Shown here piece after piece: positions 26,398-51,730 of a stretch of DNA of 64,000 nt. The position numbers were made by a program, and so were the translations under genes. The stretch spans positions 139,861 to 203,860 of the forward strand of contig JAFUDX010000012.1 of the NCBI GenBank assembly GCA_017464425.1. Direction: 5' to 3'. Under the pieces are notes generated by a model. The model ran no database searches and was not told the DNA's origin. It saw only the letters and a list, made by a program, of their open reading frames with translations. This DNA is from Treponema sp. (lineage in GTDB: Bacteria; Spirochaetota; Spirochaetia; Treponematales; Treponemataceae). Numbering within the stretch: the first letter of the stretch is position 1; each line of letters opens with the position of its first letter.

Positions 26398-26406
26398 GAA
26401 CGGCAT

Positions 26407-28350: not shown

Positions 28351-28377
28351 GTGTAGCGATACACGAGGAGGTTTCGT

Positions 28378-32488: not shown

Positions 32489-32569
32489 GAATGTTATAGT
32501 CGCCAAGCCAGAAATATTATATTTATAGTCAAATAAACTCGTTATGTATGGTCGTAGTTTAAATAAAAT

Positions 32570-32598
32570 TTGATTTTTCTAGGTTATTAGACTATAAT
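32570..32598 (+). promoter_or_regulatory. Promoter-like site P2: TTGATTTTTCT-N9-GACTATAAT (-35 TTGATT, 17-nt spacer, -10 TATAAT)
   Basis: Read directly. It is a near-duplicate of P1 and sits 37 nt upstream of the ATG at 32636, which has an AAGGAG RBS. Confidence 0.55.
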
Positions 32599-32635
32599 TT
32601 TAAAAACTAAGACAACTTTAAGGAGCGTCTAGAGA

Positions 32636-33973
32636 ATGGATAAAAATCTTAACAATGAAACGGAAAAGCGGCTTGGCTTGAACGGCTTGTTTGTGGTTCT
32701 CACCCTGCTTGTTTTGTACGGTATTTCTTGCACGGCTATAAAATCCTGGCAGATATACACGGATGAATTCTTTGGGGTGATAGAACTGGGGCTGTGCTCG
32801 CTGGTTGTGTCTGCCCTTTGGATTTTCATGTACTGGTTTTTGGACAGAATTAAGCATGAAAGCCTTAAAATGACCGTGCTCACCTTCTTTTTGGGTGTCG
32901 TTGCGTATCTTTCTGGCAAAGGTGTTCTTGAGTGGATTATCGGCACCGAAGTTTCGGTGCTCATGGAAAACATTTGGCTACCTGTCGTTTCATTTTTCCT
33001 TGTCTTTACCTTTATCGTCGTTAAGTTGCGCTCTTTTGACGAACTGGTTGATTCCTTTATTTATGGCGGATTTTTGGGAACGGGTATTGCATTTGCTTCG
33101 TGCATGACGGAATTTGTTCACTATACCAGCCTTGACGGTCAGTTTGTGATTATCGAATTGATTACGCGCATTTCTGTGCATGCGGCAGTCTGTTCGCTTG
33201 CAGGATTTTTGATTCATCAGGCACTTCTAAAGAAAAAAATTCTCCGATTGATTCTTTCTGTCGTACTCATGACGCTGCTTTTTACCATTGATTATTGCGT
33301 TGAGCAGATTTTCTTAAAAAACATTGAGCTTGTGGGAATCACGATTCTTCCCGTTCTTGTTTCGGTTGTTTTCGCGGCTCTTCTTGTCGCTGTCGTCGTA
33401 CTGCTTATCCATCGGATTTTAAAAAGGGGTGAGCTTGATGCAGCTTCCTTAACCTTACCAAGCAATCGTGCCACCGCAGTGATTATGGTGACTATGCTTG
33501 TCTTGTTCTTGGGATATGCCTTCTCGCTCCGCTATTCAGAATTCAAGACTGAAAAATTTGTCTCTTCAAACGGGGAGTGGTCGTTCAGTTTGCCAAAAGG
33601 CTTTTCTTGCGTGGAAGAACGCTCGAATACGAGTAGCTTTAACTTTGATATTCCGACTGGAAATGTATTCTACAAAAATAAAAACGGCTCAATAAATCTC
33701 TATCTGTTTTACGATGCCGACACGGATTTGGTTAAAATTATTGACCCTCTCAAACTCGGTTCAGAAAATGGGTGGGATATTTCTGTCGGCTTTAACAGTT
33801 TTGTCGCTGATGACTCGTATGGCAATCCCTTTATGCTGTATCAGAAAACATACAAAATCAAAAAAGGCGAGAATGAATTGCTGATTGATGTGTTCAGTGA
33901 CCAAAAAGAAGACGAAGAGGCAAATCGTGCCGTAAGAGTCTTAATCAGAACTTTGGAGGCAAAAAATGACTAG
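32636..33973 (+). CDS. Polytopic membrane protein, PrsW-like intramembrane protease fold, with C-terminal extracytoplasmic domain
   Basis: About 8 hydrophobic helices. 'FLDRIKHESLKMTVLTFFLG', 'YGGFLGTGIAFASCMTEFVHY' and 'RISVHAAV' line up with PrsW-family motifs but are partly divergent. The last 150 aa are soluble. Confidence 0.4.
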   Translation: MDKNLNNETEKRLGLNGLFVVLTLLVLYGISCTAIKSWQIYTDEFFGVIELGLCSLVVSALWIFMYWFLDRIKHESLKMTVLTFFLGVVAYLSGKGVLEWIIGTEVSVLMENIWLPVVSFFLVFTFIVVKLRSFDELVDSFIYGGFLGTGIAFASCMTEFVHYTSLDGQFVIIELITRISVHAAVCSLAGFLIHQALLKKKILRLILSVVLMTLLFTIDYCVEQIFLKNIELVGITILPVLVSVVFAALLVAVVVLLIHRILKRGELDAASLTLPSNRATAVIMVTMLVLFLGYAFSLRYSEFKTEKFVSSNGEWSFSLPKGFSCVEERSNTSSFNFDIPTGNVFYKNKNGSINLYLFYDADTDLVKIIDPLKLGSENGWDISVGFNSFVADDSYGNPFMLYQKTYKIKKGENELLIDVFSDQKEDEEANRAVRVLIRTLEAKND

Positions 33974-35483
33974 TTTTGGAACAAAAATGAAAAAAACGCT
34001 GTTTTTCGTTATTCTGACCCTCTCATGTATTCATCCCGTGCTTGCGCAAACGGAGCATGAGGGCGACTGGTTTTCTGCAGAAACGCTTTCTTCTGTCGTT
34101 AAATTGAGCAGCTTGCTTGTAACATATGATGTTGAGGGCTTGCCACGAGATTATACATACCATACAAAGGGGGGTGAACCTGATTTTGGAGATGCGCTTG
34201 TTGTGTCTGAGTCAGCAGAATTAACCCATGTGGGCACTGGTGTCATTATAACAAAAGAAGGCCTCATTATTTCTAATGCTCATGTCACACGGGCGTATAT
34301 TGAGCCGACCATACAAGAATTAAAGGGAAGCAAGGTCGGGCCAAACGGCAAGCCGATTACGCGCGTTATTATCAATCCGTTTACGAATATAATGTTTGTG
34401 GGCATGGTAGACGCTAATCGGCTTGAACGGGGGGATGATGCCCAAAAACTCAAGTATATTGCGTATATTCTTGAAGATGATGCCAATTACAATAATTCCC
34501 GTGACCGTGCCGTACTGCAGATTTTGTCTGAGTGCCACTTGGGAGCAAATGGCGTGCCTGTATCGGACGGAAAAGTTGAAAATCTAAACCTCCCGCATGC
34601 GAAATTCGGAAATCCGTTCAGAACATCATTTACAGACCGAAAAGTTCGGGCGATGGGATTTCCTGGCACGGGGGATCCAAACCGTTCTGCGCGGACATCT
34701 GGTGAGCTATTAGGTTACGAAGATGAAAAAACATCAAAAATCCTTCATACAAGCTATATTTCTGGCGGAAACAGCGGCGGCGGTCTTTTTCATAAAGACG
34801 CGCTGATTGGTATAAATACATGGGATAAATTGCAGAACAAAAGCCGTCCTGTTGCAATCGCTCAGCCAGTTACCTACTGGTTTGACTTGCTCTCAAAAGT
34901 AAAATGGATTTATCCGGGCATTGAGCTTCCTGATGGCTTGATGCTGGACTGGATTGATGATGATCCTGGCAAAGAAAACTATAAAGACGAAGTGCAGGTT
35001 TTCCTTAAATTCGTGTCTGATTCAAACAAAAATATTCCTGTCACGAGCGGAAAGATATATGCGCACCGTGTCGATACCGATATTGACGATGTGCTTACCT
35101 ATATTTCCGTTGCAAAAGATTTGAACGAAGGCATGATGATTTCTTATTGGCTGCAGTATTACACCGTTGATGAATTCGTAAAAGAATCTGGATACAACAA
35201 AGCCTATGTTGAGTTGTTCAAGTCTGTTACGGATGAAAAACAACTGCGTGATATGATTCGTCCTGAGCTTCGCCCGTATTTTGATGAATGGTATAACGGT
35301 ACATTCTATTGTAAGACCGTCGATTTAAAAGACGAAGACGGCAAAACAGCTATTTCTGTTCCGAAAGATTCAAAGACGCACATCACTTTTGTGAGTGATG
35401 ACGGAAATGCAAAGACCACATTTACATTTACAAGCGACTCTGACTATTTTCAAGGACGATTCACTATTCCTGTAAAGCAATAG
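33966..35483 (+). CDS. Secreted trypsin-like (S1/S1C) serine protease with unknown C-terminal domain
   Basis: GGAGG RBS and signal peptide '..FFVILTLSCIHPVLAQ'. The catalytic triad contexts are 'ISNAHV', 'DRAVLQI' and 'GGNSGGGLF'. It overlaps the upstream gene by 8 nt. Confidence 0.8.
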   Translation: MTSFGTKMKKTLFFVILTLSCIHPVLAQTEHEGDWFSAETLSSVVKLSSLLVTYDVEGLPRDYTYHTKGGEPDFGDALVVSESAELTHVGTGVIITKEGLIISNAHVTRAYIEPTIQELKGSKVGPNGKPITRVIINPFTNIMFVGMVDANRLERGDDAQKLKYIAYILEDDANYNNSRDRAVLQILSECHLGANGVPVSDGKVENLNLPHAKFGNPFRTSFTDRKVRAMGFPGTGDPNRSARTSGELLGYEDEKTSKILHTSYISGGNSGGGLFHKDALIGINTWDKLQNKSRPVAIAQPVTYWFDLLSKVKWIYPGIELPDGLMLDWIDDDPGKENYKDEVQVFLKFVSDSNKNIPVTSGKIYAHRVDTDIDDVLTYISVAKDLNEGMMISYWLQYYTVDEFVKESGYNKAYVELFKSVTDEKQLRDMIRPELRPYFDEWYNGTFYCKTVDLKDEDGKTAISVPKDSKTHITFVSDDGNAKTTFTFTSDSDYFQGRFTIPVKQ

Positions 35484-35490
35484 GAGCTTT

Positions 35491-37503
35491 ATGGTTCATA
35501 TGGTGCAAAAAATGGCACTCGATACAAGTTTTTGTTTTTGGGTGTCATTTTTCGTATTCTGCATATTTTTGCTTTTCTCGATTGCCACCGCTATACATCG
35601 CCTGGATATTGTAAAGCCATTGCGTGTCTTTGGAATAGGGCTTGCCGTATGTGATTTTATCATACTGATTCCGATTCTGCATGCAATCGGCGAGTGCGGA
35701 GATGGAGGCGTGGCTTCCGTTTCTTCGGCGATTATGAACATGGCGCAGCTGGTTACGCTTAATGTCGGCTATGACGCGCTGATAAAGGCTGCGGACGAAG
35801 CGCATGTGCTGGTGTTTTTTACGATACTCTGTGTGCTCACGCCTGCTGTCTGGGGAGGGGTGGTGCTCACTCTGTTTGAAAACCTTTCCAGCTATCTTGC
35901 CTATCAAATTTTTAGTCCGTTTATCCCGGTTTATTTTTTTTCCGAACTGAATGAAAACGCGCTCATGCTTGCACAGAGCATAAAAAACCAAAAAGGAAGG
36001 AAAACTCTCTGCATTTTTTGCGGCATTTCTGAAAATACCTCTCCCGAATTAAAAGAAGAAGTAAAGAATAACAGTTTCCTTTTACTAAAGCAAAGCGAAG
36101 CTTCGTGTATAAAAAATCCTAAAAATCAGCAGACATACTTTGAAATTTCTGAAAATCAAAATGAAAACCTTACGCATACCTGCACGCTTATTCACGCCTG
36201 TACAAAAGCATACGGGGACTGTGATTATTCAAACATGCGGATTTATCTTTTTTCTGAACAGGAAGAAGCACCCCTGCTTTTAAATTCGATTGACAAAAAA
36301 GGAATCCCCGTCATTCTTGTGGACCGTGACCGATTTGTCGCGCATGATTTGCTGTTTACGCATCCGCTCTATGAAGTGCTCAGTGACGGTTCAAAAACAA
36401 TTTCTGTGCTCATCGTGGGAGACGGGCGGCTTGCGAATGAGATTTTAAAAACAAGCGTCTGGTGCGGTCAGCTTGGAAAAAACTATCATTTAAAAATAAA
36501 TGCTATCACTAAAAATGCATCTCATTCTGAAAAAGTCATGCGTCTTGAATACCCGGAATTTTTTAACGGTGAGTATGATATTTCTTTTTTTGAGGCCGAC
36601 ATCACGACCTGTGATTTTGAGGCATGCCTTGACGAGCACTGTGCTGATGTAAATTATATCTGCGTCTGTTCTGAATCTGACGAAACAAACAGCCATGTCG
36701 CTCTCTATCTTCGTGCTTACTATTTCCGTAAAAATACAGATTCTTTTAAAAAGCCGTTTATTGCCGTTTGTGTGCGCGACAGCTCAAAAAATGCCATTAT
36801 TCCAGAATTTACCGCTGTTCCGCGCGAGAAATTGCTTTCAAAAAAAATACAGAGCGATTCCGATGCGGCTTTGAATTACAATTTGTTTGCGTTTGATTCA
36901 GACCGCTTGTTTTATTCATCGTATCTGATTGATTCCCCATTGGAGCGGATTGCGCTTAATGTGCATTTTGGCTATGAACTTTCATTTTCTGAAGGAACAG
37001 CGAGTTCCTCATTGGCTCGGAAAACCTATTACGCAAATGAAACTGGAATCCGTTCAAATCGTGCGAATGCGCTGCATATTCGGTATAAATTGTTCCTGTT
37101 AGGCTATGATTTAAAAGCACTTTCTTTTGTGAAGGGGGCGCAAGAATCAGAACGAGACGAACTCGCGCAAAAACTGCAAGCGGATATTGAAACGAATGTG
37201 CTCATGCTTTCTCTGATTGAGCATGACCGATGGAATGCGTTTATGCGGAGCGAAGGCTGGCGAAGCGCAAGTCTGGAACAGGCGAAAAAGGCGGGAACTC
37301 ACAAAATTACACGCGCAAAAATGCATGCCTGCTTGTGTACATGGGATGAACTTGATTCTTTTGCTGAATTTGACCCCAAATTTAAAGAATATGATGAAAT
37401 CATGATAAAAAATATTCCGTATTTGCTCGGACTGATTCCCCACAAGCTAAACATAAGCGGTGTGAACGCTGTGCTTGAAAAAAGGAGCAACTATGGAAAC
37501 TAA
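35491..37503 (+). CDS. Polytopic membrane protein with cytoplasmic Rossmann-like (GxGxxA) domain and RyR-like C-terminal domain
   Basis: The N-terminal 150 aa hold about 4-5 TM helices. 'ISVLIVGDGRLANEIL' is a dinucleotide-fold signature. 'LIEHDRWNAFMRSEGW...HACLCTWDELD' resembles bacterial RyR-domain repeats. The start is ambiguous (35491, 35500 or 35515). Confidence 0.5.
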   Translation: MVHMVQKMALDTSFCFWVSFFVFCIFLLFSIATAIHRLDIVKPLRVFGIGLAVCDFIILIPILHAIGECGDGGVASVSSAIMNMAQLVTLNVGYDALIKAADEAHVLVFFTILCVLTPAVWGGVVLTLFENLSSYLAYQIFSPFIPVYFFSELNENALMLAQSIKNQKGRKTLCIFCGISENTSPELKEEVKNNSFLLLKQSEASCIKNPKNQQTYFEISENQNENLTHTCTLIHACTKAYGDCDYSNMRIYLFSEQEEAPLLLNSIDKKGIPVILVDRDRFVAHDLLFTHPLYEVLSDGSKTISVLIVGDGRLANEILKTSVWCGQLGKNYHLKINAITKNASHSEKVMRLEYPEFFNGEYDISFFEADITTCDFEACLDEHCADVNYICVCSESDETNSHVALYLRAYYFRKNTDSFKKPFIAVCVRDSSKNAIIPEFTAVPREKLLSKKIQSDSDAALNYNLFAFDSDRLFYSSYLIDSPLERIALNVHFGYELSFSEGTASSSLARKTYYANETGIRSNRANALHIRYKLFLLGYDLKALSFVKGAQESERDELAQKLQADIETNVLMLSLIEHDRWNAFMRSEGWRSASLEQAKKAGTHKITRAKMHACLCTWDELDSFAEFDPKFKEYDEIMIKNIPYLLGLIPHKLNISGVNAVLEKRSNYGN

Positions 37504-39943: not shown

Positions 39944-39946
39944 TGT

Positions 39947-40597: not shown

Positions 40598-40609
40598 TGC
40601 GGAGACTTC

Positions 40610-44416: not shown

Positions 44417-44443
44417 CAAAATAACGAATGATGGAGGTGTGAT

Positions 44444-47400
44444 ATGCGTAAGTTCTTATGGTTTCTGTATTTCTGTTGTATTGTTTTCCCTGTGGCAACA
44501 ACTCAAGAATCCCGCGTCGAAATTCCATCGGAAGTGCTGCAGCGATTGGTGTACGCAAAGGACAATGGGACGGAGTGCAGTCAGGAATTCCTTGAGAATC
44601 TGGAAAAAGACCTTTTAAACTATAAGGAATCTCAAGTGTATGATACGGCGCGTCAGTTCTTGGCCATTGCCTATTACAGAAAGGGAACGGCATATCATCA
44701 AAACAAGGACTACGACCACGCACTTATTTATGAAAAAAAAGCTTTGGATATTTTTTATGAGCTCTTTGGAGACCAGTATGCCGATACAATAACACTGTAT
44801 AATAATGTCGGAATGATTTACTTCGACAAAAAAGACTATACTTCTGCCCTTACATATCTGAAATACTCACTTCAGGTGCGCAATCAATATATCGAAAAAA
44901 AAGACAGCACGACGATTTCTCTCTATACAACGATTGGCGATGCGTACAAAGAAAAGGGCGAGTATAAAAACGCGCTTCCGTATTATAAAGAGGCTCTTGA
45001 ACTCAAAAAGTCCCTGCTCGGAGAAATGAATGCTTCGACCGCAAATGGCTATAGATATGTGGGAAATATGTATGATTGGACTGCGCAGTATGACCTTGCA
45101 TTGGAATATTATGAAAAAGCTTTGGAAATTCGTAAGAAGGTATCGGGGGAACAGCATGCGCAGACTGAATATCTCTATGATGTAATTGGACTGGTGTATT
45201 TTCACAAGGGAATGTACGATTCTGCGGTGACATGGTTTCAGTGTGCGGCGGATACTATTGAATCTAAGGAAAAAATAACGAATTCGGCTCCATATAATAA
45301 TCTGGGGCTTGTGTATTATGCAAAAGGTGACTATGACGCGGCAATCGCTTGGTATGGAAAATCCTTAAAAATCTTATTGGAGACAGCGGGAGAAAAAGAA
45401 ATTGTAGCGACGTTGTATGACAATATCGGTGCTGCCTACCGCGCGAAGGGCGACATTGATTCAGCGTTGGAATACTGTGTTAAAGCGAATGAATTATATG
45501 TGGCTACACTCGGTGAAAACAATACAGACACTGCGATTTCATGCAACAATACGGGAACGCTATACGACAGATTAAAAGATTATGAGAACGCCACAAAGTA
45601 TTATCAGCGTGCACTGAATATCTTTTATGCGTTGAAGCAATATGAGCATCCGCAGCTTGCCGTTACATTCATGAATGTGGGAAGTGCCTATTCCAAACTG
45701 GGAGAATATGATTTGGCATTTGATTTTCTTAGCCGTGCGCTAAAAATCGAAGAAGCAAAACTCGGTCAAAATCATCCGTATACCATAAGCACATACAATG
45801 ATTTCGGCGATCTCTATTACAAAAAAGGCGACTATGAAACGGCAAAAACCTATTATGAGAAAGTGATTTCATGCTCACGAAACGGCCTTTCATACAAGCA
45901 AAATATCCAAGCGGTAAAAGATATGCTGTTTCAGTGCCAAAAAATCAGTGATCCCGCGTTTATTCGTTCTGCCCTTGCGCTTGGAATCGACACTGCGGAG
46001 CGGGCTCGCCTTGACATGACGGGAATCAAAGATGACATCATGGCCCTTTCTCAACCTATTTACTATTACGGTGTGCATTTTGAGGCAGAGCAGGGAAACA
46101 GAGCGCAGGCGTTCGCCTATTCAGAATCGCTTCGGAACAGAGGTTTTCTTGACCAAATCGGCACGGAAACGGCATTGCGGCTTGACGGCGTTACAGACTC
46201 AGAGCGCGAAAAAATTCATACGCTTTCTGCCCGCATTATTTCCGCGCAAAAAGAAATTGAAGCGCAAAATCAAAAAGCAATTTCCAGTCGGGATACGGAG
46301 CGGCTTATACAGGCGGGAAATGCGCTTGTCGCGGCAGAAAAGGAACTTGCGCAATTAGATGAAAGTATCGGAAAGCGCGTGCCTGCCTATGCTCAGCTCA
46401 GAAACCCTCAGCCTGTCAGCATTGATGCCGCGCAAGCCTGGTGCACGGGTGGAAAAACGGTACTTGAATATGTCTTGTATGAGGATGCAAACGAAAAAAA
46501 TGCTGTGGCAAAATCATACTGCATTGTGTTGTCCCAAAAAGACATTCAGATTGTCATGCTTGATTCTGACTATGATTACGCAACTGCCGTCTTGAATCTA
46601 CGGACTGCGGTCGTTGAAAAACAGCAGAGCCTTTCTTCAGGAAGCAGAACTTCGCTCCAAAAATATCGTTCGGCGTTGTTTGACCGGCTGATACAGCCTG
46701 TCCTGCACTATATTCCTGCGGATACCACGCAGCTCGTCATCGTCCCAGACGGAGAGCTTTCGGCCCTTCCATTCGATATATTGGGGAACAGTGAATTTGG
46801 TGTTCTCGGCGAAAAATACTCGCTCACATTTTCCCCCTCACTTTCAATCAGCATTTTAAAAGAAAACATCGACAAAAAGCTGTTCCGTATTCTTGGTTTG
46901 GGAAATGCCATGTATACCGCATTGGACGGCCCCTCTTCCCCATCAACGAAAAAATCTGTGAGTTCGGTGGCGGATTATTATAAAAAGAATCTTATTTCGT
47001 GGGAAAATCTTTCTGGGACTAAGCAGGAGTTGTATAATCTAAAAAATAAGATTTTTAAGGGGGAAAAAATTGCCATCTTTGAGCAAGAAAAGGCAAGTGA
47101 ACGGACGATGAAAGAACTTTCCCAATCTGGGGAACTGGCATTGTACAGTCAGATACTCATCGCCTGTCACGGCTATTTTAATGCCGCAAAACCTGAACTT
47201 TCGGCATTGGTTTTTTCTGAAGTCTCGCATGACGGCGAAAAATCGGGTGAAGACGGCTACCTTACTATTGATGAAATCTCGCTCTTAAAAATGAATGCTG
47301 AATTCTTGAATCTCTCGGCCTGCCAGACGGGGCTTTCGGCTCTCAAAAAGGGTGACGGTATGCTCGGACTTACCCGTTCCTGCATTGTCGCAGGTGCACA

Positions 47401-47587
47401 TACGGTGGGCGTTACGCTTTGGGAAGTGCATGATATGGCAACCTGTGTGTTTCAGGAATATCTGTACGGCTTCATAAAAAACGGCGTGCCATACGCAACG
47501 GCATATCAGAATGCAAAACAAAAAATGAAAGAATCCGAAGAGTGGTCTAATCCTGTGTATTGGGCGGCTTTTGTTCTGTATGAGTAG
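44444..47587 (+). CDS. Exported TPR-repeat / CHAT-domain (caspase-like) protease, paralogue 2
   Basis: Signal-peptide-like 'MRKFLWFLYFCCIVFPVA', then a TPR array. The CHAT contexts are 'ILIACHGYF' and 'LNLSACQTG'. The C-terminal half is closely similar to paralogue 1. Confidence 0.85.
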   Translation: MRKFLWFLYFCCIVFPVATTQESRVEIPSEVLQRLVYAKDNGTECSQEFLENLEKDLLNYKESQVYDTARQFLAIAYYRKGTAYHQNKDYDHALIYEKKALDIFYELFGDQYADTITLYNNVGMIYFDKKDYTSALTYLKYSLQVRNQYIEKKDSTTISLYTTIGDAYKEKGEYKNALPYYKEALELKKSLLGEMNASTANGYRYVGNMYDWTAQYDLALEYYEKALEIRKKVSGEQHAQTEYLYDVIGLVYFHKGMYDSAVTWFQCAADTIESKEKITNSAPYNNLGLVYYAKGDYDAAIAWYGKSLKILLETAGEKEIVATLYDNIGAAYRAKGDIDSALEYCVKANELYVATLGENNTDTAISCNNTGTLYDRLKDYENATKYYQRALNIFYALKQYEHPQLAVTFMNVGSAYSKLGEYDLAFDFLSRALKIEEAKLGQNHPYTISTYNDFGDLYYKKGDYETAKTYYEKVISCSRNGLSYKQNIQAVKDMLFQCQKISDPAFIRSALALGIDTAERARLDMTGIKDDIMALSQPIYYYGVHFEAEQGNRAQAFAYSESLRNRGFLDQIGTETALRLDGVTDSEREKIHTLSARIISAQKEIEAQNQKAISSRDTERLIQAGNALVAAEKELAQLDESIGKRVPAYAQLRNPQPVSIDAAQAWCTGGKTVLEYVLYEDANEKNAVAKSYCIVLSQKDIQIVMLDSDYDYATAVLNLRTAVVEKQQSLSSGSRTSLQKYRSALFDRLIQPVLHYIPADTTQLVIVPDGELSALPFDILGNSEFGVLGEKYSLTFSPSLSISILKENIDKKLFRILGLGNAMYTALDGPSSPSTKKSVSSVADYYKKNLISWENLSGTKQELYNLKNKIFKGEKIAIFEQEKASERTMKELSQSGELALYSQILIACHGYFNAAKPELSALVFSEVSHDGEKSGEDGYLTIDEISLLKMNAEFLNLSACQTGLSALKKGDGMLGLTRSCIVAGAHTVGVTLWEVHDMATCVFQEYLYGFIKNGVPYATAYQNAKQKMKESEEWSNPVYWAAFVLYE

Positions 47588-47602
47588 AATAGGGGGTGCG
47601 AT

Positions 47603-48043
47603 ATGAAATTGTATCACAAACTGTGTGCGCTTGCGCTTTCACTTTTGGGGCTTTCCGCGTATGCTCAGGAATGGGAGCGCCCAAAACGCACAAAAATCGT
47701 TGAGGGCTTTGAACTGGAAGATTCGTTTCTTACCGTGTATGGCGGTCGGAGAAACTACATAACGACAAAATTATATGGTTCTGTCTATGACAAAGATAAA
47801 AAACTTCCGCTAAAAGGCATAAAAATTGCGCTGTATTCGGGAACGCATGAAATGGCTTCTGCTTACTCGCAAGAAAACGGTGATTATTACTTTGATGATT
47901 TTACGGTGTGGGCGGGGCTCAGAGTTGAGTATACGATGATTGTCTCTGACCCAAACGGTGAATTTGCGCCGCTCCGTCGGGAACTCTGTTTTGAGCTCGA
48001 TGAAGTAACGCGTGAAGAAATCGTTGTCTTGGAGCGAAAATGA
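47603..48043 (+). CDS. Radical-SAM-associated small secreted protein (carboxypeptidase-regulatory-like), copy 2
   Basis: Signal peptide 'LALSLLGLSAYAQE'. 'LYGSVYDKDKKLPLKGIKIALYSG...NGDYYF' parallels copy 1. Its stop overlaps the radical SAM start by 4 nt. Confidence 0.6.
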   Translation: MKLYHKLCALALSLLGLSAYAQEWERPKRTKIVEGFELEDSFLTVYGGRRNYITTKLYGSVYDKDKKLPLKGIKIALYSGTHEMASAYSQENGDYYFDDFTVWAGLRVEYTMIVSDPNGEFAPLRRELCFELDEVTREEIVVLERK

Positions 48044-49149
48044 GAGGACTGACCGTAAAAGAACGGCTTCGTCGTTTTGTGTTTAGGCTCTACCGTCATG
48101 CGGTAAGAAGCGAGCATGAGCTGACCTATCTCTTTTGGGAATGTACGCTTCGGTGCAATCTGAATTGCCTGCATTGTGGCTCAGATTGCCTCAAAGAGTC
48201 ATCGGTTCCCGATATGCCGCTTAGTGATTTTGTGCAGGCATTGAATGGCATAAAAACAAAAAATACTGCATCTCATATGACCGTGTGCATTACGGGCGGT
48301 GAGCCGCTTCTTCGCTCTGATTTGGAACAGGCGGGGGTGGCAATTCGTCAGCGTGGTTTTAACTGGTGTATCGTATCAAACGGCCTTGCAATGACGGCAG
48401 AGCGATTTGATTCTCTCATAAAAAGCGGGCTTGGTGGAATGAGCCTGAGCATTGATGGGCTGCAAGAAGAGCATACCTATTTGCGTCGCAATCCAGAGTC
48501 GTTCATGGCGGTCTCCAATGCAATTGATTTGTGCGTTACCCGTCATGCACAGTATCCGAGCTTGTTTTTGTTTGATGTGATTACCTGCGTTCATAAAAAA
48601 AATCTTTCTGTATTACCCGCGCTCCGTGATTTTTTGATTGAAAAAGGTGTGCACTCTTGGCGACTTTTTTCGATTTTTCCGAATGGACGGGCTGCAAGAA
48701 ATGACTTGGCTCTTTCTTCCCAAGAGTATCGGGTACTTTTAGATTTTATCGCCGAAACAAGGAACTACCGCACTTGCGATGGAAAGACAATTCATGCGAG
48801 TTATTCATGTGAGGGCTACTTGGGGGACTATGAACTTACCGTGCGCGATTATTTCTTTTTCTGTCGCGGGGGAATCAATGTCGGTTCAATCATGTGCGAT
48901 GGTTCTATTACCGCCTGTCTGAGCGTGCGAAGCCCTGCATTTATTCAGGGAAACATTTACAAAGATGATTTCATGGATGTGTGGAATCAAAAATTCCAGA
49001 ATGCGAGAAATCGCACGTGGGCAAAAACAGGAGAGTGTGCAAACTGTAAAGAATGGCGGTGGTGTGAAGGAAACGGCTTGCACCTTCATAAAGACGACCG
49101 TTCTGAATGTACCTATTGCAATCTGAAACTGATTGAACACAAAACATAA
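48040..49149 (+). CDS. Radical SAM/SPASM-domain enzyme, copy 2
   Basis: 'CTLRCNLNCLHCGSDC', with the C-terminal 'CANCKEWRWCEGNG...SECTYC'. It is collinear with copy 1 along its full length, and long stretches are identical at the protein level. Confidence 0.8.
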   Translation: MRGLTVKERLRRFVFRLYRHAVRSEHELTYLFWECTLRCNLNCLHCGSDCLKESSVPDMPLSDFVQALNGIKTKNTASHMTVCITGGEPLLRSDLEQAGVAIRQRGFNWCIVSNGLAMTAERFDSLIKSGLGGMSLSIDGLQEEHTYLRRNPESFMAVSNAIDLCVTRHAQYPSLFLFDVITCVHKKNLSVLPALRDFLIEKGVHSWRLFSIFPNGRAARNDLALSSQEYRVLLDFIAETRNYRTCDGKTIHASYSCEGYLGDYELTVRDYFFFCRGGINVGSIMCDGSITACLSVRSPAFIQGNIYKDDFMDVWNQKFQNARNRTWAKTGECANCKEWRWCEGNGLHLHKDDRSECTYCNLKLIEHKT

Positions 49150-49177
49150 GAATGTATATCATGAAGGAGGAAAACAA

Positions 49178-50152
49178 ATGATTTACACTATCCCTATTTT
49201 ATTTATCTTTATTTCGAGTATCATCACGGTGATTGTGACTGGCGGTACGATTGGCGGAACAATCGATATTCCCAGTTTTTTTGTCATGTTTACGACTCTT
49301 TTTACCATGCTGATTGCGTCTAACTCTGTAAAAGATTTCTTTCGTGCGCTAAAAATCGTCGTGTCTAAAAAAGACTATTCCGCTCTCCAAATTGCGCAGT
49401 CATTGAATGCTGTTTCGCTTGTAATCACTTCTGTGGTCGTGGTGTGCGGTATGATTGCCTGTCTCTCCATTGCCATGCTTCTCGCTTTTCTTGACGATAC
49501 GCCTCGATTCGGCCCTGTAGTGGCACTTGGGCTTCTTACGCTTTTTTATATGGGTGAGATGCTGCTTATTCTGATTCCCGTAAAGTCGATTCTGTATAAA
49601 AAACTATCGGCTTTTAAAAGAAGTCCGACAAACGATGCGTTTGTTTTTTCAAAAATTCCGGCAAAGCCATACATTTCGTTTGTTGCGGGGCTTATCGTGC
49701 TTTTTCTGCTTTTGAGCATCCAGAGTACTTTTTTATTGTCTGATTATCCTCCGCGACTTTTGTCCTTTGTTCCCGCAATGCTGCTTTTCCTTGTCGCCGC
49801 ATCTATTCTGTTGCTTGTGCCAGCAAAACTGTTCCGTGCGTATCTCACCGCACTAAAACTCAGCATTCTGCCATCTGCGTCGGAACAGATTGCCCAATTA
49901 GCTGAGGCACGGAGGGCGGTCAATTTCGTAATACTCATTCGGTTTGCGCTCGCTGCCTGTGGGGGTGTGCTGTTGATGATTGGTACGCTGAATCGGCTTG
50001 ACGATGTGTCGCAAATTCCGTTTGAATTTTCTATTCCGCTCTTGCTTGCCGCCGTTTCTTTTTTGAGCGCGCTGTTTTTGCTCATCGTTCGCGCACGAAT
50101 CGAAAAAGCCGTTAATTTCAGACTCTATGGAGACTCAAATGATGAAGAATAA
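49178..50152 (+). CDS. Polytopic membrane protein, MotA/TolQ/ExbB-like with internal duplication
   Basis: GGAGG RBS before the ATG at 49178. 'MLLAFLDDTPRFGPVVALGLLTLFYMGEMLLILIPVKSIL' resembles the conserved MotA/ExbB channel segment. A second, more degenerate copy is 'LLMIGTLNRLDDVSQIPFEFSIPLLLAAVSFLSALFLL'. Confidence 0.4.
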   Translation: MIYTIPILFIFISSIITVIVTGGTIGGTIDIPSFFVMFTTLFTMLIASNSVKDFFRALKIVVSKKDYSALQIAQSLNAVSLVITSVVVVCGMIACLSIAMLLAFLDDTPRFGPVVALGLLTLFYMGEMLLILIPVKSILYKKLSAFKRSPTNDAFVFSKIPAKPYISFVAGLIVLFLLLSIQSTFLLSDYPPRLLSFVPAMLLFLVAASILLLVPAKLFRAYLTALKLSILPSASEQIAQLAEARRAVNFVILIRFALAACGGVLLMIGTLNRLDDVSQIPFEFSIPLLLAAVSFLSALFLLIVRARIEKAVNFRLYGDSNDEE

Positions 50153-51653
50153 AAAAAGCCTCTGCGTTGCGTTCGCTCTTTTTGTTTCAGTTCAGCTGTT
50201 TTCTGCCACTATGCAGAGCCGTGTCCGTCAGATTCCCAAGAATTTGCAGGAGCAGGTTTTTATTGAGCCAAAAGATACGCTCATGGATGTAACGAAAGCT
50301 CTTGTGAGTGGAATCAGTGACGCTTCCACAAAAGTCAAGATTATCCATGACTGGATTTGCGATAATATTGCCTATGATTGCAATGTGTTTACTGATGCAG
50401 GAGCCGGACCGCAGGGATTCGAGGCTGTCCTTAAAAAAAAGAAGGCGGTCTGCGCGGGATATGCAAATCTTATGGCAGTTATGTGCGGCATCGTCAACAT
50501 CGAGTGCGAGATTGTGTATGGCTGGTCGAAAGGCTTTAATTATCCCGGCTATCTTTGGCCTGAAAGCGATCATGCATGGAATGCCGTAAAACTTGGGGGA
50601 CGATGGAAGCTGATTGATGTCACATGGGACGCAGGATTTGTCGAAGGAACAACATTTATCAAGCGATACACGAATCAATGGTACAATCTTACCCCCGATC
50701 AGTTTGGCTATTCCCACCTTCCCGAAGAAGACAAATGGCAGCTGCTTCCAGAAAAACAAATCCGTTCTCATGAGCAGTTTGAAAGAGAACCGTATGTTCC
50801 TGGCGTATTCTTTGAGTATGGTCTTTCGTTCGGAAAAAATGCGCCATGCTATAAAAATGAAATTTCAGAAGCGATGAGTTTTGATTTTTCTGCCTCTAAA
50901 AACACGGTTATGCTGTATGCCGATATGTACGGGAAATCACAGAGCGATATGACCAATTGCGTTTGGATGGAAAACGCTGGGCGGAATAAAAAATGTATCT
51001 TTGATGTTCCCGATAAAGCATCCTATACGGCACGGGTCGGGGCGCGTACGGAAGGGGTGGTGAATAATCCGACTTATTTTTTGCAGGGCGATTTTGAGCA
51101 GAATGTGCTTCCTGCTGCCCGAAATCTCTTTGCTCAGAAAAAAATCACCAAAAACGAGATTGATTTTTTTGAACGCTCGTATACGCTTGTCGCTGAAAAC
51201 CGCCGCTATTACTATATTGAAGATTTGTTCGACACGCAGCGGAATGCGGCGAATACAAAAATCCTAAAACTTTTGAATAAAAATACCAGCCGCTACGAAA
51301 ATGTGATTACCTTTGAAGTTCATGCAGCTGCCGACTATGAGGGCAAAGGAACAACGGATATTTTCCCGATTATGTACCGAAACTATCTGAGTGCGGCAAA
51401 TATCCGTTTGGAATCACCGCTTGTGCATACGCTTAAAAAGGGAACTGAATATCATTTTGCTGTCACAACGAATGCGTATAATCATATGGCGTTCGTGCTT
51501 CCTGAAAACACCTTTGTCTTTTTGACGAAGAATCCCAAAACAGGCAGCTTTGAGCTTGATTTTACGATTCCCGAAGATATTCAGACGCTCGGCGTGTATG
51601 CGTCAAAGGACAAAAAAGAATTTGTCACGCTGTTTGAGTACGCACTTAAGTAA
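50139..51653 (+). CDS. Exported transglutaminase-like cysteine protease-fold protein
   Basis: Signal peptide 'LCVAFALFVSVQLFSA'. The Cys/His/Asp contexts are 'AVCAGYANL', 'DHAWNAVKL' and 'LIDVTWD'. The start could be 50127, 50139 or 50142. Confidence 0.75.
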   Translation: MMKNKKSLCVAFALFVSVQLFSATMQSRVRQIPKNLQEQVFIEPKDTLMDVTKALVSGISDASTKVKIIHDWICDNIAYDCNVFTDAGAGPQGFEAVLKKKKAVCAGYANLMAVMCGIVNIECEIVYGWSKGFNYPGYLWPESDHAWNAVKLGGRWKLIDVTWDAGFVEGTTFIKRYTNQWYNLTPDQFGYSHLPEEDKWQLLPEKQIRSHEQFEREPYVPGVFFEYGLSFGKNAPCYKNEISEAMSFDFSASKNTVMLYADMYGKSQSDMTNCVWMENAGRNKKCIFDVPDKASYTARVGARTEGVVNNPTYFLQGDFEQNVLPAARNLFAQKKITKNEIDFFERSYTLVAENRRYYYIEDLFDTQRNAANTKILKLLNKNTSRYENVITFEVHAAADYEGKGTTDIFPIMYRNYLSAANIRLESPLVHTLKKGTEYHFAVTTNAYNHMAFVLPENTFVFLTKNPKTGSFELDFTIPEDIQTLGVYASKDKKEFVTLFEYALK

Positions 51654-51730
51654 AATACAACTGCTATGCAAAAGTGGCTATGAAAAATCTTTAAAAATAT
51701 GGTAGAATCTGAAGTGGTGGTGAACGCTTC

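What the first reader, a model, noticed from the sequence alone, without database searches (positions are those of the whole stretch)
32570..51653. Twelve-gene operon joining a membrane TIR protein to five different protease types: candidate undescribed envelope-linked conflict or signalling system
Seen in the sequence:
- All 12 ORFs from the promoter-like site at 32570-32598 to 51653 are co-directional, with junctions of -14 to +28 nt. Overlaps occur at 33966/33973, 37493/37503, 48040/48043 and 50139/50152. This looks like a single expression unit.
- The products are: a PrsW-like polytopic protein; an S1 protease with intact H/D/S; a polytopic Rossmann + RyR-like protein; a TIR-TM-repeat protein; a PPC-domain protein; two TPR-CHAT proteins with intact His/Cys; a small secreted protein plus a radical SAM/SPASM enzyme; a MotA/ExbB-like protein; and a transglutaminase-like protease with intact C/H/D.
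- The S1, PPC, both CHAT and transglutaminase proteins all start with signal-peptide-like N-termini. The proteolytic parts are therefore predicted outside the inner membrane, while the TIR and Rossmann/RyR domains face the cytoplasm.

Established knowledge:
- TIR domains act as NAD+-cleaving effectors or signal generators in Thoeris, some CBASS systems and SARM1.
- CHAT caspase-like proteases act in type III-E CRISPR (TPR-CHAT/Csx29) and in bacterial gasdermin activation.
- Those systems are cytoplasmic and carry an NTPase, cyclase or Cas sensor. I see none of these here (no P-loop STAND, cyclase, cas gene or nuclease).

Inference: an extracytoplasmic protease cascade reports envelope damage or invasion through the TM-TIR protein. 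The alternative is a surface-protein processing or competition locus.
Basis: partly seen in the sequence, partly recalled or inferred. Interest (0 to 1): 0.85.

Follow-up and report, generated by a model that had tools for sequence, protein, structure and literature searches.

The report
Membrane TIR receptor with RyR-domain partner
A gut/rumen Treponema carries an 11-gene block whose conserved heart is a membrane-spanning TIR protein paired with a previously uncharacterised membrane protein that joins channel-type regulatory domains to a ryanodine-receptor (RyR) domain, which looks like an undescribed relative of the Thoeris anti-phage signalling systems.

Summary
The block is real, but it has 11 co-directional, tightly packed ORFs (32636-51653), not 12. 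They sit behind the best promoter-like site in the only sizeable gap.

**Domain calls**
- Confirmed: TIR, S1 protease, two TPR-CHAT proteins, radical SAM/SPASM and transglutaminase.
- 'Rossmann + RyR' is refined to 3 TM helices + tandem RCK domains + a RyR domain.
- PrsW-like is only remotely supported and lacks PrsW's catalytic motifs.
- PPC is marginal. MotA/ExbB is unsupported.

**Comparative genomics**
- The RCK-RyR protein belongs to a large family: at least 2,462 clusters at E<=1e-30.
- In 42 of 87 sampled loci it lies next to a TIR gene, usually 0-30 nt downstream. This holds in both Spirochaetota and Clostridia.
- The TIR catalytic Glu is invariant (62/62).
- The four RyR residues that a 2026 preprint shows binding cADPR isomers are near-invariant.

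**Best reading**
This is a Thoeris-like system. A receptor-like TIR makes an ADPR-type signal that the RyR/RCK membrane protein senses. The proteases are lineage-specific accessories.

**Open points**
- Pore formation is not confirmed.
- The full block recurs in one other diverged Treponema lineage.
- Its distal half (lipoprotein/rSAM, polytopic protein, transglutaminase) also occurs on its own next to caspase-like proteases.

The parts
32570..32598 (+). Promoter-like site TTGATT-17 nt-TATAAT. An RBS (AAGGAG) lies at 32620-32625.
   Evidence: This is the best + strand match (10/12) in 32300-52000 and lies in the only 148-nt gap. It is a consensus match only.
32636..33973 (+). g1: polytopic membrane protein with about 8 TM helices and a C-terminal soluble domain of about 150 aa. 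It is a remote, probably catalytically inactive, PrsW-like protein, translationally coupled to g2.
   Evidence: - TM helices were predicted from hydropathy.
- PF13367 is hit in only 2 of 8 orthologues.
- hhalign against genuine PrsW gives 66% probability, E 5.6e-5, over the DRxxxEP and FDxxxDxxIYG motifs. PrsW's EE, EN and His motifs have no counterpart.
- The g1-g2 pair is conserved in L003, L005, L013 (two copies), L014, L017 and L026.
33966..35483 (+). g2: secreted or lipoprotein-like S1 (trypsin/HtrA-type) serine protease with an uncharacterised C-terminal half of about 200 aa.
   Evidence: - Trypsin_2 E 4.7e-10 and Trypsin E 1.5e-9.
- The His/Asp/Ser triad is visible in the translation.
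- N-terminal hydrophobic segment.
- Orthologues share 41-72% identity and always follow g1.
35491..37503 (+). g3: membrane protein with several distinct regions.
- Three TM helices plus two short helices (residues 1-141).
- Tandem RCK/KTN Rossmann domains (about 147-290 and 303-470).
- A C-terminal RyR (R12-type) domain (about 540-650).

It is the predicted receiver/effector of the TIR signal.
   Evidence: - The AF2 model has pLDDT 88.8.
- Foldseek top hits are Slo1/BK, Slo2.2 and the CASTOR gating ring (E 4e-4).
- The family profile hits bacterial RyR-domain structures 4N05/3NRT (E 4e-5) and a RyR1 chimera (1.6e-10).
- Conservation:
  - H578 85/86
  - W581 84/86
  - H612 84/86
  - D635 48 of 49 aligned
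  - G310 86/86
- The family has at least 2,462 clusters at E<=1e-30.
37493..39943 (+). g4: single-pass membrane protein.
- The N-terminal cytoplasmic TIR domain (residues 1-170) has its catalytic Glu at residue 99.
- The TM helix lies at residues 181-199.
- The extracytoplasmic domain is about 600 aa and has YD/RHS-like repeats.
   Evidence: - TIR_2 E 7.4e-13 and ThsB_TIR E 1.3e-6.
- The TM helix and the preceding KKRKIRR stretch.
- The catalytic Glu is invariant in 62/62 TIRs next to g3 homologues.
- Homologues carry RHS_repeat, MORN_2 or WD40 C-termini.
- The window protein's own RHS_repeat hit is only E 0.089.
39947..40597 (+). g5: small secreted protein with a beta-rich C-terminal domain. 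It always follows the g4-type TIR gene.
   Evidence: - There is no significant Pfam hit. PPC scores only E 0.066 in the L013 orthologue.
- Orthologues (48-68% identity) lie directly after the TIR gene in L005, L013 and L026.
40610..44416 (+). g6: TPR-CHAT caspase-like protease with a signal-peptide-like N-terminus.
   Evidence: - TPR_12 E 1.9e-125 and CHAT E 1.8e-53.
- His and Cys motifs are intact.
- Orthologues share 62-68% identity in L005/L006/L096 and L013.
- There is a weak CHAT-only match to PADLOC BovA.
44444..47587 (+). g7: second TPR-CHAT protease, a paralogue of g6, with a signal-peptide-like N-terminus.
   Evidence: - TPR_12 E 2.4e-70 and CHAT E 7.3e-50.
- No orthologue is seen elsewhere. 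In the related lineage a TIR-WD40 gene occupies this position.
47603..48043 (+). g8: small exported protein partnered with the radical SAM enzyme.
   Evidence: - It overlaps g9 by 4 nt.
- It is 28% identical to the upstream TIGR04134-like lipoprotein.
- Orthologues share 63-70% identity in L096 and L097, always before the rSAM gene.
- It has no NCBIfam hit of its own.
48040..49149 (+). g9: radical SAM/SPASM enzyme of family TIGR04133.
   Evidence: - TIGR04133 scores 459.4 bits against a cutoff of 425.
- The Cx3Cx2C motif is present in the translation.
- It is 67% identical to the upstream paralogue.
49178..50152 (+). g10: polytopic membrane protein with 7-8 TM helices and unknown family. It is translationally coupled to g11.
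   Evidence: - No Pfam, NCBIfam or PADLOC hit.
- Homologues are found only in Treponema-like contigs.
- It precedes the transglutaminase gene in L096 and L097, and lies close to caspase-like proteases in L096, L097 and L098.
50139..51653 (+). g11: secreted transglutaminase-like cysteine protease with an Ig-like domain.
   Evidence: - Transglut_core E 2.2e-15 and Ig-like_KY E 2.4e-7.
- Cys/His/Asp are intact.
- Its orthologue after g10 in L097 is 62% identical.
- Transglutaminase-domain proteins lie within 5 kb of g3 homologues in 11 of 87 loci. Transglutaminase-FGE-Sel1 giants occur in L003, L007 and L093.
30945..32488 (+). Upstream paralogous cassette: lipoprotein (30945-31385) plus TIGR04133 radical SAM/SPASM enzyme (31382-32488). 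It is a duplicate of g8/g9 and flanks the block on the other side.
   Evidence: - TIGR04134 scores 38.7 bits (cutoff 39.8) and TIGR04133 scores 456.9 bits (cutoff 425).
- It is 67% and 28% identical to g9 and g8 respectively.

Best explanation
The block joins two recurrent modules.

**Module A (g1-g5)** is an undescribed Thoeris-like TIR signalling system.
1. g4 is a receptor-like single-pass protein. Its repeat ectodomain receives an extracytoplasmic cue. (Inferred.)
2. The cue is possibly gated by proteolysis through the exported S1 protease g2, which is held at the membrane by the PrsW-derived g1. Relatives use genuine PrsW instead. (Inferred.)
3. Activation lets the cytoplasmic TIR domains assemble and convert NAD+ into an ADP-ribose-derived messenger. 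(Inferred from the invariant catalytic Glu and the ThsB-type TIR.)
4. The messenger is bound by the RyR domain of g3, and perhaps by its GxGxxG RCK domain. (Inferred from the conserved H/W/H/D tetrad.)
5. g3 has 3 TM helices and a Slo/CASTOR-like tandem-RCK 'gating ring'. On binding it changes membrane permeability, most simply by opening a cation pore, and this arrests the cell or the invader. (Inferred; the pore is not shown.)

**Module B (g6-g11)** consists of secreted caspase-like proteases, the lipoprotein/rSAM pair, a polytopic protein and a transglutaminase. It is an envelope-located accessory module that also exists without a visible module A. Its role is unknown. It may process the receptor ectodomain or its ligand.
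For: **Linkage of g3 and TIR**
- Loci were chosen by g3 similarity alone.
- 42 of 87 non-redundant loci have a TIR gene within 5 kb. Most are 0-30 nt downstream on the same strand.
- This holds in Treponema/Spirochaetaceae and in Oscillospiraceae, Lachnospiraceae and Erysipelotrichaceae.
- Starting from the TIR instead leads back to g3-like/RyR proteins in L093 and L094.

**The TIR looks enzymatic**
- The catalytic Glu is present in 62/62.
- ThsB_TIR Pfam hits are found.

**g3 looks like a receiver**
- Its RyR domain is confirmed.
- PMC13232231 shows that RyR (PF02026) proteins bind or cleave 2'/3'cADPR through H75, W78, H100 and D117.
- The matching g3 residues are near-invariant:
  - H578 85/86
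  - W581 84/86
  - H612 84/86
  - D635 48 of 49 aligned
- The RCK2 GxGxxG motif is conserved: G310 86/86.
- The full-length model resembles Slo1, Slo2.2 and CASTOR.

**Precedents**
- Thoeris effectors are often TM proteins, and type X uses an ion channel.

**Other support**
- Small standalone RyR proteins sit beside g3 in 16 loci (Pfam E 6.9e-37). They could buffer the signal.
- The TIR sensor parts vary (RHS/YD, WD40, LRR_4, LRR_5, TPR), and there are several TIR paralogues per locus.
- Conflict-type neighbours occur in some loci:
  - Wadjet JetC/JetD
  - RtcB
  - TerB
  - a Gp49/HTH pair
- A genuine PrsW lies between g3 and TIR-TM-LRR in Clostridia.
Against: - There are no experimental data on any member.
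- The pore is unproven.
  - The TM-domain-only model (pLDDT 88.8) found no significant fold match (best E 2).
  - The TM profile found nothing in PDB sequences.
  - The conserved loop (T/S-L-D-x-D/E-Y/F) is not a known selectivity filter.
- The window's own g3 has Thr where 60/86 relatives have the Asp that usually binds the nucleotide ribose in RCK2.
- About half of the g3 loci show no TIR with my HMM.
- The window itself has housekeeping neighbours and no defence island.
- The family was not found on viral contigs.
- PADLOC gives no Thoeris hit.
- The g4 TIR is unrelated at sequence level to a type X Thoeris TIR (E 0.31).
- g1 seems to lack protease residues.
- Nothing ties the secreted CHAT or transglutaminase proteins mechanistically to the TIR.
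- In Clostridia the cluster also holds a CitMHS-type permease and giant polytopic proteins. This could point to a physiological rather than an immune role.
Confidence: 0.45

Rival explanations
1. The direction is reversed. The TIR proteins are NAD+-depleting killing effectors, and g3 is the sensor or regulator. g3 would read membrane potential, ions or NAD(H)/ADPR levels through its RCK and RyR domains. Alternatively its RyR domain would hydrolyse or buffer TIR products, as the phage RyDEP glycosidase does, to keep the TIR in check.
For: - Many bacterial TIRs act as NADase effectors.
- RyDEP-type RyR domains can degrade or sponge cADPR isomers.
- The H/D catalytic dyad of RyDEP is conserved in g3.
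- RCK domains classically sense NAD(H), ATP or ions (established knowledge; titles).
- Standalone RyR proteins are co-encoded in 16 loci.
Against: - It is the TIR proteins, not g3, that carry the variable repeat domains typical of sensors.
- g3 is the constant partner and has the TM module expected of an effector.
- Several TIR paralogues share a single g3 in L003, L017, L026 and L093. This fits many sensors feeding one effector.
Confidence: 0.2
2. This is not an immune system. It would be an envelope homeostasis, surface-protein maturation or host/neighbour-sensing locus of gut and rumen anaerobes. Secreted proteases, a transglutaminase and an rSAM-modified lipoprotein would remodel the surface. 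The TIR/RCK-RyR pair would couple envelope state to ion or NAD metabolism.
For: - The window neighbours are lipoproteins, an ABC permease and purF.
- Module B occurs next to a histidine kinase and a sigma-54 regulator in L097.
- Clostridial clusters contain a CitMHS-type permease, lipoproteins and giant transglutaminase-bearing membrane proteins.
- The family is very large and is restricted to host-associated anaerobes in the sample.
- There are no hits on viral contigs and no PADLOC match.
Against: - The invariant TIR catalytic Glu and the cADPR-binding tetrad argue for nucleotide signalling of the kind so far known from immunity.
- TIR paralogues multiply and their sensor domains diversify.
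- Close relatives carry the module in different genomic contexts.
- Wadjet, RtcB, TerB and toxin-antitoxin neighbours occur in some loci.
Confidence: 0.2
3. The 11-gene block is a mosaic with no joint function. Module A, the CHAT genes, the TIGR04134/TIGR04133 cassette and the g10-g11 pair would be independent units that merely share a strand and perhaps a transcript.
For: - Most g3/TIR loci lack CHAT, rSAM, g10 and S1.
- g8-g11 occur without a visible module A in L097, and g10 does so in L098.
- TIGR04133/TIGR04134 is a separately defined cassette, and a second copy sits just upstream.
- L026 has g1-g5 but no CHAT within 3 kb.
Against: - The complete order is kept in a lineage whose g3 is only 49% identical: g1, g2, g3, TIR, g5, CHAT, then g8, g9, g10, g11.
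- Junctions range from a 14-nt overlap to a 28-nt gap, and there is no intergenic terminator.
- Transglutaminase proteins recur beside g3 in both phyla.
- Caspase-like proteases recur beside g10.
Confidence: 0.3

Closest known systems
Thoeris anti-phage systems (types I-XI; ThsB TIR plus a signal-activated effector)
   Same: - A TIR gene with the catalytic Glu and ThsB_TIR similarity sits directly next to a constant partner.
- That partner combines a nucleotide-binding module with a membrane module.
- Variable sensor parts are attached to the TIR.
   Different: - The partner (3 TM helices + tandem RCK + RyR) is not among the effectors named in the 2025 survey. 'RyR' is absent from its text and supplements.
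- The window's TIR is a single-pass membrane protein with a 600-aa ectodomain.
- Exported proteases are co-encoded.
- There is no PADLOC match and no functional data.
Type X Thoeris (TIR + ion-channel effector ThsK; Bacillus sp. BH32, Vibrio)
   Same: The concept is a TIR paired with a predicted ion channel. The signal molecule of type X is still unknown.
   Different: - The g4 TIR shows no significant similarity to a type X TIR sequence (E 0.31).
- The type X TIRs listed are short proteins, with no ectodomain described.
Phage RyDEP RyR-domain proteins (PMC13232231)
   Same: - Both have the same PF02026 domain.
- The ligand residues H, W, H and D are conserved.
- Small standalone RyR proteins are also encoded beside g3 in 16 loci.
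   Different: - RyDEPs are small soluble viral counter-defence proteins that act as a glycosidase or a sponge.
- In g3 the domain is the C-terminus of a 670-aa host membrane protein that is genetically linked to the signal-producing TIR.
RCK-gated cation channels (MthK, Slo1/BK, Slo2.2, CASTOR/POLLUX)
   Same: - Two RCK/KTN Rossmann domains lie in tandem after a TM module.
- The full-length model's best PDB matches are Slo1, Slo2.2 and CASTOR.
   Different: - There is no TVGYG-type filter.
- There are only three TM helices.
- The TM module alone has no significant structural match.
- There is an extra RyR domain.
PrsW/RsiW and DegS/RseA regulated proteolysis of single-pass membrane proteins
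   Same: - A PrsW-family membrane protein (genuine in the Clostridia loci) and an HtrA/DegS-like S1 protease are encoded next to a single-pass protein.
- That single-pass protein has an extracytoplasmic domain.
   Different: - The presumed substrate is a TIR protein, not an anti-sigma factor, and no sigma factor is present.
- g1 lacks the PrsW catalytic motifs.
- Cleavage is entirely hypothetical.
Type IV Thoeris (TIR + caspase-like ThsE), Borvo (BovA CHAT) and type III-E CRISPR TPR-CHAT/Csx29
   Same: A TIR and caspase-fold (CHAT) proteases with intact His/Cys lie in one operon. There is a weak CHAT-domain match to BovA.
   Different: - g6 and g7 carry signal-peptide-like N-termini, so they are predicted outside the cytoplasm. 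A cytoplasmic nucleotide could not reach them there.
- There are no cas genes among the annotated neighbours.
- CHAT is present in only a few lineages.
NTPase-centred conflict systems of multicellular bacteria (Kaur, Burroughs, Iyer, Aravind 2020, 2021)
   Same: They use the same effector vocabulary: TIR, caspase/CHAT, trypsin, transglutaminase, FGE-sulfatase (FGS), and TPR/WD40/Sel1 repeats.
   Different: - Those systems are organised around STAND or MoxR-vWA NTPases and effector-associated adaptor domains. None is present here.
- Neither PrsW nor RyR is mentioned in those papers.
TIGR04133/TIGR04134 cassette (radical SAM/SPASM protein with associated putative lipoprotein)
   Same: g9 and the upstream paralogue pass the TIGR04133 cutoff. 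Each is preceded by a small exported protein.
   Different: g8 itself does not hit TIGR04134. Here the cassette is embedded between caspase-like proteases and g10-g11, an association kept in L096 and L097.

Membership tests
Thoeris (TIR signalling defence) | ThsB-type TIR domain with the catalytic glutamate | tested here: met
   TIR_2 E 7.4e-13 and ThsB_TIR E 1.3e-6. The Glu is conserved in 62/62 TIRs next to g3 homologues.
Thoeris (TIR signalling defence) | Adjacent effector gene with a domain that binds the TIR-made nucleotide | tested here: inconclusive
   - g3 is adjacent in 42/87 loci.
- It has a RyR domain with the H/W/H/D residues shown to bind cADPR isomers in RyDEP.
- Binding itself was not tested.
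Thoeris (TIR signalling defence) | Match to existing detection models for known Thoeris types | tested here: not met
   PADLOC 2.0 gave no ThsA or ThsB hit, only weak SAVED_TIR matches. Models for types V-XI were not available.
Thoeris (TIR signalling defence) | Protection against phage and production of an ADPR-derived signal on infection | not testable with these tools
   This needs expression, phage challenge and LC-MS.
Type X Thoeris | TIR of cluster 2598792572 paired with the ThsK ion channel | tested here: not met
   The g4 TIR compared with a type X TIR from the paper's supplement gives E 0.31.
RyR (PF02026, R12) domain | Sequence membership and the conserved ligand-binding His-x-x-Trp, His and Asp | tested here: met
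   - The profile hits 4N05/3NRT at E 4e-5 and 6UHI at 1.6e-10.
- Conservation of the ligand residues is shown.
- Pfam RyR is recorded on the distant relative in L094.
RCK-gated P-loop cation channels | Tandem RCK/KTN domains forming a gating-ring unit | tested here: met
   - Foldseek hits Slo1, Slo2.2, the BK gating ring and CASTOR.
- TrkA_N is recorded on homologues.
- GxGxxG is conserved.
RCK-gated P-loop cation channels | Pore module: outer helix, pore helix, selectivity filter, inner helix | tested here: inconclusive
   - The helix pattern 41-66 / 73-88 / loop / 107-141 is compatible.
- The TM-only model has no significant match (best E 2; CNGA3/B3 at rank 11).
- There is no TVGYG motif.
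PrsW intramembrane protease (PF13367, MEROPS M82) | Pfam score above the gathering threshold | tested here: not met
   The window g1 has no hit. Two of eight orthologues hit, with best E 1.2e-4. Clostridial neighbours of g3 homologues do pass (E 2e-33).
PrsW intramembrane protease (PF13367, MEROPS M82) | Conserved EE, EN and His motifs, as seen in the genuine PrsW alignment A4 | tested here: not met
   hhalign aligns only the DRxxxEP and FDxxxDxxIYG regions. There is no EE, EN or invariant His in g1 orthologues.
CHAT caspase-like proteases | CHAT domain with catalytic His and Cys | tested here: met
   CHAT E 1.8e-53 and 7.3e-50. The ACHGY and LSACQTG motifs are present in both proteins.
Type III-E CRISPR TPR-CHAT (Csx29) | Adjacent gRAMP/Cas7-11 and a CRISPR array | tested here: not met
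   None of the genes annotated between 24.7 and 56 kb is cas-like. No repeat-array search was run.
TIGR04133/TIGR04134 cassette | rSAM/SPASM protein above the TIGR04133 cutoff, preceded by a TIGR04134 lipoprotein | tested here: met
   - g9 scores 459.4 bits and the upstream paralogue 456.9 bits, against a cutoff of 425.
- The upstream lipoprotein scores 38.7 bits against a cutoff of 39.8.
- g8 has no hit but is 28% identical to that lipoprotein.
MotA/ExbB proton-channel family | PF01618 match | tested here: not met
   g10 has no Pfam hit even at E<=1, and no NCBIfam or PADLOC hit.
PPC (bacterial pre-peptidase C-terminal) domain | PF04151 match | tested here: inconclusive
   The window g5 has no hit. 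Orthologues score E 0.066 and 0.92.

The most novel reading that the evidence does not exclude
This would be a bacterial 'outside-in' innate-immune pathway.
- Receptor-like proteins with the domain logic of Toll-like receptors (repeat ectodomain, one TM helix, cytoplasmic TIR) are controlled by extracytoplasmic or intramembrane proteolysis.
- In Clostridial relatives the ectodomain is literally LRR.
- The TIR makes a cADPR-type messenger that opens an RCK/RyR-domain cation channel.

That would be a prokaryotic counterpart, and possibly an antecedent, of the animal cADPR-to-ryanodine-receptor link.
Probability: 0.2. Interest if true: 0.92.

Novelty: new variant of a known kind. Interest (0 to 1): 0.72.

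Why it matters
- **A new testable effector.** If the reading holds, it adds a large, unrecognised effector family to TIR-based signalling. The family has thousands of clusters in gut and rumen anaerobes and no dedicated Pfam model. It also gives the bacterial RyR domain a host-side role as a receiver of ADPR-type messengers. So far the domain has only been shown to act in phage counter-defence.
- **A link to an old question.** It would place TIR, a cADPR-binding RyR domain and a channel-type gating ring in one operon. That makes the long-debated link between cADPR and ryanodine receptors testable in a simple two-gene system.
- **Sensing from outside the cell.** The membrane-receptor TIR variants (TIR-TM-RHS here, TIR-TM-LRR in Clostridia), together with PrsW or S1 proteases, suggest that bacteria may sense threats outside the cytoplasm. 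This is not known for Thoeris.
- **Value even if the immune reading is wrong.** The g3-TIR linkage still defines a conserved, uncharacterised signalling pair.

Tried and rejected
1. **PADLOC on ten of the block's proteins (g9 not included).** No named system matched. There were only weak domain-level hits: SAVED_TIR, BovA and RT-protease.
2. **Testing the channel idea directly.**
   - An AF2 model of the TM module alone, searched with Foldseek against the PDB, gave nothing significant.
   - An HMM of the TM module against PDB sequences returned only spurious GPCR hits.
   - I therefore do not claim a pore. The resemblance of the conserved loop to bacterial Nav/Cav filters (TLESW/TLDDW) is from memory only and is not used as evidence.
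3. **Viral contig scan with the g3 profile.** No relatives were found.
4. **Metagenome scan with g10.** It found only itself. The word-indexed protein search was needed to find homologues.
5. **Remote g3 homologues in Firmicutes.** L008 and L011 showed no TIR context. This first suggested the link was spirochaete-specific, but the HMM census overturned that.
6. **Rejected labels.** MotA/ExbB for g10 and an active PrsW for g1 are rejected. PPC for g5 is left open.
7. **Type IV Thoeris or type III-E-like roles for the CHAT proteins.** I judged these unlikely, because the signal-peptide-like N-termini are conserved in the L013 orthologue.
8. **Same clade as type X Thoeris.** The TIRs are not similar.
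9. **Literature.** I found no paper in the held library that joins PrsW with a TIR domain. None joins RyR with a host TIR effector either.

Full report
**Source and layout**

The window matches a 345-kb scaffold of a metagenome-assembled Treponema (close homologues are named Treponema sp.).

Between 32636 and 51653 there are 11 ORFs on the + strand, not 12:
- g1: 32636-33973
- g2: 33966-35483
- g3: 35491-37503
- g4: 37493-39943
- g5: 39947-40597
- g6: 40610-44416
- g7: 44444-47587
- g8: 47603-48043
- g9: 48040-49149
- g10: 49178-50152
- g11: 50139-51653

The 148-nt gap upstream holds TTGATT-17-TATAAT (32570-32598) and an AAGGAG ribosome-binding site. No intergenic terminator-like hairpin lies inside the block. 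A single transcription unit is plausible but not shown.

**Domain checks**

Firm calls:
- Trypsin_2
- TIR_2 and ThsB_TIR
- two TPR_12 + CHAT proteins
- Radical_SAM + SPASM (TIGR04133, above cutoff)
- Transglut_core + Ig-like_KY

Not supported or weak:
- g10 as MotA/ExbB has no hit in any library.
- g5 as PPC scores E 0.066 in one orthologue only.
- g1 as PrsW is only remotely supported. It has no hit itself. Two of eight orthologues hit, at best E 1.2e-4. hhalign against genuine PrsW proteins gives 66% probability over two motifs, with no counterpart of the EE, EN or His motifs.

A hydropathy scan agrees with the proposed topology:
- g2, g5, g6, g7, g8 and g11 have signal-peptide-like N-termini.
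- g4 has one TM helix after a KKRKIRR stretch, so the TIR faces the cytoplasm.
- g3 has its TM helices at the N-terminus.

No dedicated predictor was available.

**What g3 is**

The family alignment gave a confident AF2 model (pLDDT 88.8) with these parts:
- helices 12-37, 41-66, 73-88, 94-103 and 107-141
- two Rossmann domains (about 147-290 and 303-470)
- a helical C-terminal domain

Foldseek's best PDB matches are full-length Slo1/BK and Slo2.2 channels, the BK gating ring and the CASTOR gating ring. The two Rossmann domains are therefore a tandem RCK unit.

The family profile hits bacterial RyR-domain crystal structures and a RyR1 chimera. Over 86 family members:
- E577, H578, R580, W581, G589 and H612 are conserved in 84-86 sequences.
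- D635 is conserved in 48 of 49 aligned sequences.
- The RCK2 glycine G310 is invariant.

I tried to confirm a pore and could not:
- A model of residues 1-146 alone is confident but has no significant structural match.
- Its profile finds nothing in PDB sequences.

So 'channel' remains an inference from the RCK architecture.

The family is large. There are 2,462 representative clusters at E<=1e-30 and 6,015 at E<=1e-10, mostly full-length matches of about 600-700 aa.

**Gene neighbourhoods**

I started from g3 alone and built local HMMs. Results over 87 non-redundant loci:

| Neighbour within 5 kb of the g3 homologue | Loci (of 87) |
|---|---|
| TIR gene (typically 0-30 nt downstream, same strand) | 42 |
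| Small standalone RyR protein | 16 |
| Transglutaminase-domain protein | 11 |
| S1 protease | 7 |
| g1-type protein | 6 |
| Genuine PrsW | 4 |

The loci come from Treponema/Spirochaetaceae and from many Clostridia and Erysipelotrichaceae MAGs.

I then started from the TIR protein instead. This leads to two further loci:
- L093 has an S1 protease, a small RyR protein, a g3 homologue, four or five TIR genes (one with TPR repeats), RtcB and a transglutaminase-FGE-Sel1 protein.
- L094 has a distant g3 homologue directly upstream of a TIR-RHS protein.

The TIR catalytic Glu is invariant (62/62).

The TIR partners differ in their non-TIR part:
- TM + YD/RHS-like in the window
- TM + LRR_4 in L086 and L091
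- soluble LRR_5 in many Oscillospiraceae
- WD40 or TPR elsewhere

Several loci hold two to five TIR paralogues with one g3.

**The rest of the block**

- g5 follows the g4-type TIR in L005, L013 and L026. A g6-type CHAT follows in L005/L006/L096 and L013.
- g8/g9 are a second copy of the lipoprotein + TIGR04133 cassette found just upstream at 30945-32488.
- g10 homologues exist only in Treponema-like contigs.
- L096 overlaps L005/L006 at 95% nucleotide identity. There the order is CHAT, TIR-WD40, a 68-aa ORF, g8, g9, an LRR_5 protein, g10, then the start of g11. The complete A+B arrangement is therefore kept in a lineage whose g3 is only 49% identical.
- In L097 the order is g8, g9, a 256-aa ORF, an LRR_5 protein, g10, g11. 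These follow WD40-Peptidase_C14 caspase-like proteases, with no TIR visible.
- In L098, g10 is again near a WD40-C14 protein.

I therefore treat the block as two recurrent modules:
- **Module A:** g1-g5.
- **Module B:** caspase-like proteases plus g8-g11.

**Literature**

- A 2026 preprint (PMC13232231) shows that phage RyR-domain proteins bind or cleave 2'cADPR and 3'cADPR. It names H75, W78, H100 and D117 as the ligand residues, conserved across PF02026. It does not discuss host membrane proteins.
- A 2025 preprint (doi 10.64898/2025.12.03.692087) lists 29 putative Thoeris types. These include type X (TIR + ion channel, signal unknown) and type IV (TIR + caspase-like). RyR does not appear in its text or supplements.
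- The g4 TIR is not similar to a type X TIR.
- The Aravind-lab conflict-system papers share the effector vocabulary. However, they are NTPase-centred and mention neither PrsW nor RyR.
- No paper in the library joins PrsW with a TIR domain.

**Interpretation**

*Shown*
- The genetic linkage of g3 and TIR across two phyla.
- An enzymatically competent-looking TIR.
- A RyR domain with the cADPR-binding tetrad.
- A tandem-RCK architecture.
- Membrane anchoring.
- The recurrence of PrsW-family, S1 and transglutaminase neighbours.

*Inferred*
- The TIR makes an ADPR-derived messenger.
- g3 receives that messenger.
- g3 then alters membrane permeability.
- The ectodomain senses something outside the cytoplasm.
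- Proteolysis gates that step.

*Against an immune role*
- The window's neighbours are housekeeping genes.
- There is no PADLOC match.
- The family is absent from viral contigs.
- Clostridial clusters contain a permease and giant membrane proteins.

*For an immune role*
- TIR paralogues multiply, and their sensor domains diversify.
- Close relatives carry the module in different genomic contexts.
- Wadjet, RtcB, TerB and toxin-antitoxin neighbours occur in some loci.

**Verdict**

The finding is real and interesting, but its centre of gravity moves. The novelty is not 'a TIR joined to five proteases'. It is a widespread, undescribed TIR + RCK/RyR pair, of which this Treponema locus is an elaborate, envelope-linked, protease-rich version.

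I rate it a new variant of a known kind (Thoeris-like TIR signalling). My confidence in the proposed mechanism is 0.45.

Noticed in passing
window 30945-32488: This is a second copy of the lipoprotein + TIGR04133 radical SAM/SPASM cassette. It lies immediately upstream of the block, so paralogous cassettes (67% identity between the enzymes) bracket g1-g7. This could mark an insertion of module A plus CHAT into a tandem array, or a duplication.
   Followed up: partly
window 24757-30798: - Three large predicted lipoproteins or surface proteins (392, 647 and 806 aa) have essentially no Pfam matches.
- They sit in a lower-GC stretch (0.35-0.41, against 0.42-0.50 around it).
- A divergently oriented HTH_3 regulator lies at 24757-25101.
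   Followed up: partly
L086:11838-13826 and L091:12581-14536 (Clostridia MAGs): - These proteins have an N-terminal TIR, one TM helix and C-terminal leucine-rich repeats. That matches the domain logic of Toll-like receptors, in reversed order.
- Each lies directly downstream of a g3 homologue.
- In L091 a genuine PrsW protease lies between the two.
   Followed up: partly
L024, L027, L030, L032, L041, L044, L079, L089, L091 (about 4-10 kb in each locus): Oscillospiraceae loci share a conserved gene order:
- a giant polytopic protein of 1,440-1,940 aa (Transglut_core detected in L091)
- a small lipoprotein
- the g3 homologue
- a TIR-LRR protein
- a CitMHS-type permease

The function of the giant protein and the permease in this context is unexplained.
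   Followed up: partly
L003:1-2841, L007:2011-5178, L093:19225-21993: Proteins of 920-1,170 aa combining Transglut_core, FGE-sulfatase and Sel1 repeats recur near the TIR/g3 genes. FGE-sulfatase (C-type lectin fold) domains are known targets of diversity-generating retroelements (from memory, and from the title of PMC10907252). No retroelement search was made.
   Followed up: no
L017:19648-21534, L093:17205-18329, L014:7996-8817, L003:20742-22034: Conflict- or stress-associated neighbours lie at the edges of module A in relatives:
- an Hsp70-like-RtcB fusion, and RtcB alone
- TerB directly after g3
- Wadjet JetD/JetC
   Followed up: no
window 36508-36510 (g3 residue 340): The window's g3 has Thr at the end of strand beta-2 of RCK2. 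In 60 of 86 relatives this position is the Asp that usually contacts the nucleotide ribose in Rossmann folds. Nucleotide binding at RCK2 may be altered in this particular protein.
   Followed up: no
L013:110-3030: The closest sequenced relative carries a second, diverged copy of the g1-g2 pair (37% identity) about 4 kb upstream of the main module. A Sel1-repeat protein follows it.
   Followed up: no
L005:11969-15809: In the second lineage, seven small genes are inserted between g3 and the TIR gene. They include two zinc-ribbon proteins and a homologue of the rSAM-associated lipoprotein. The g3-TIR adjacency is therefore not absolute even among spirochaetes.
   Followed up: no
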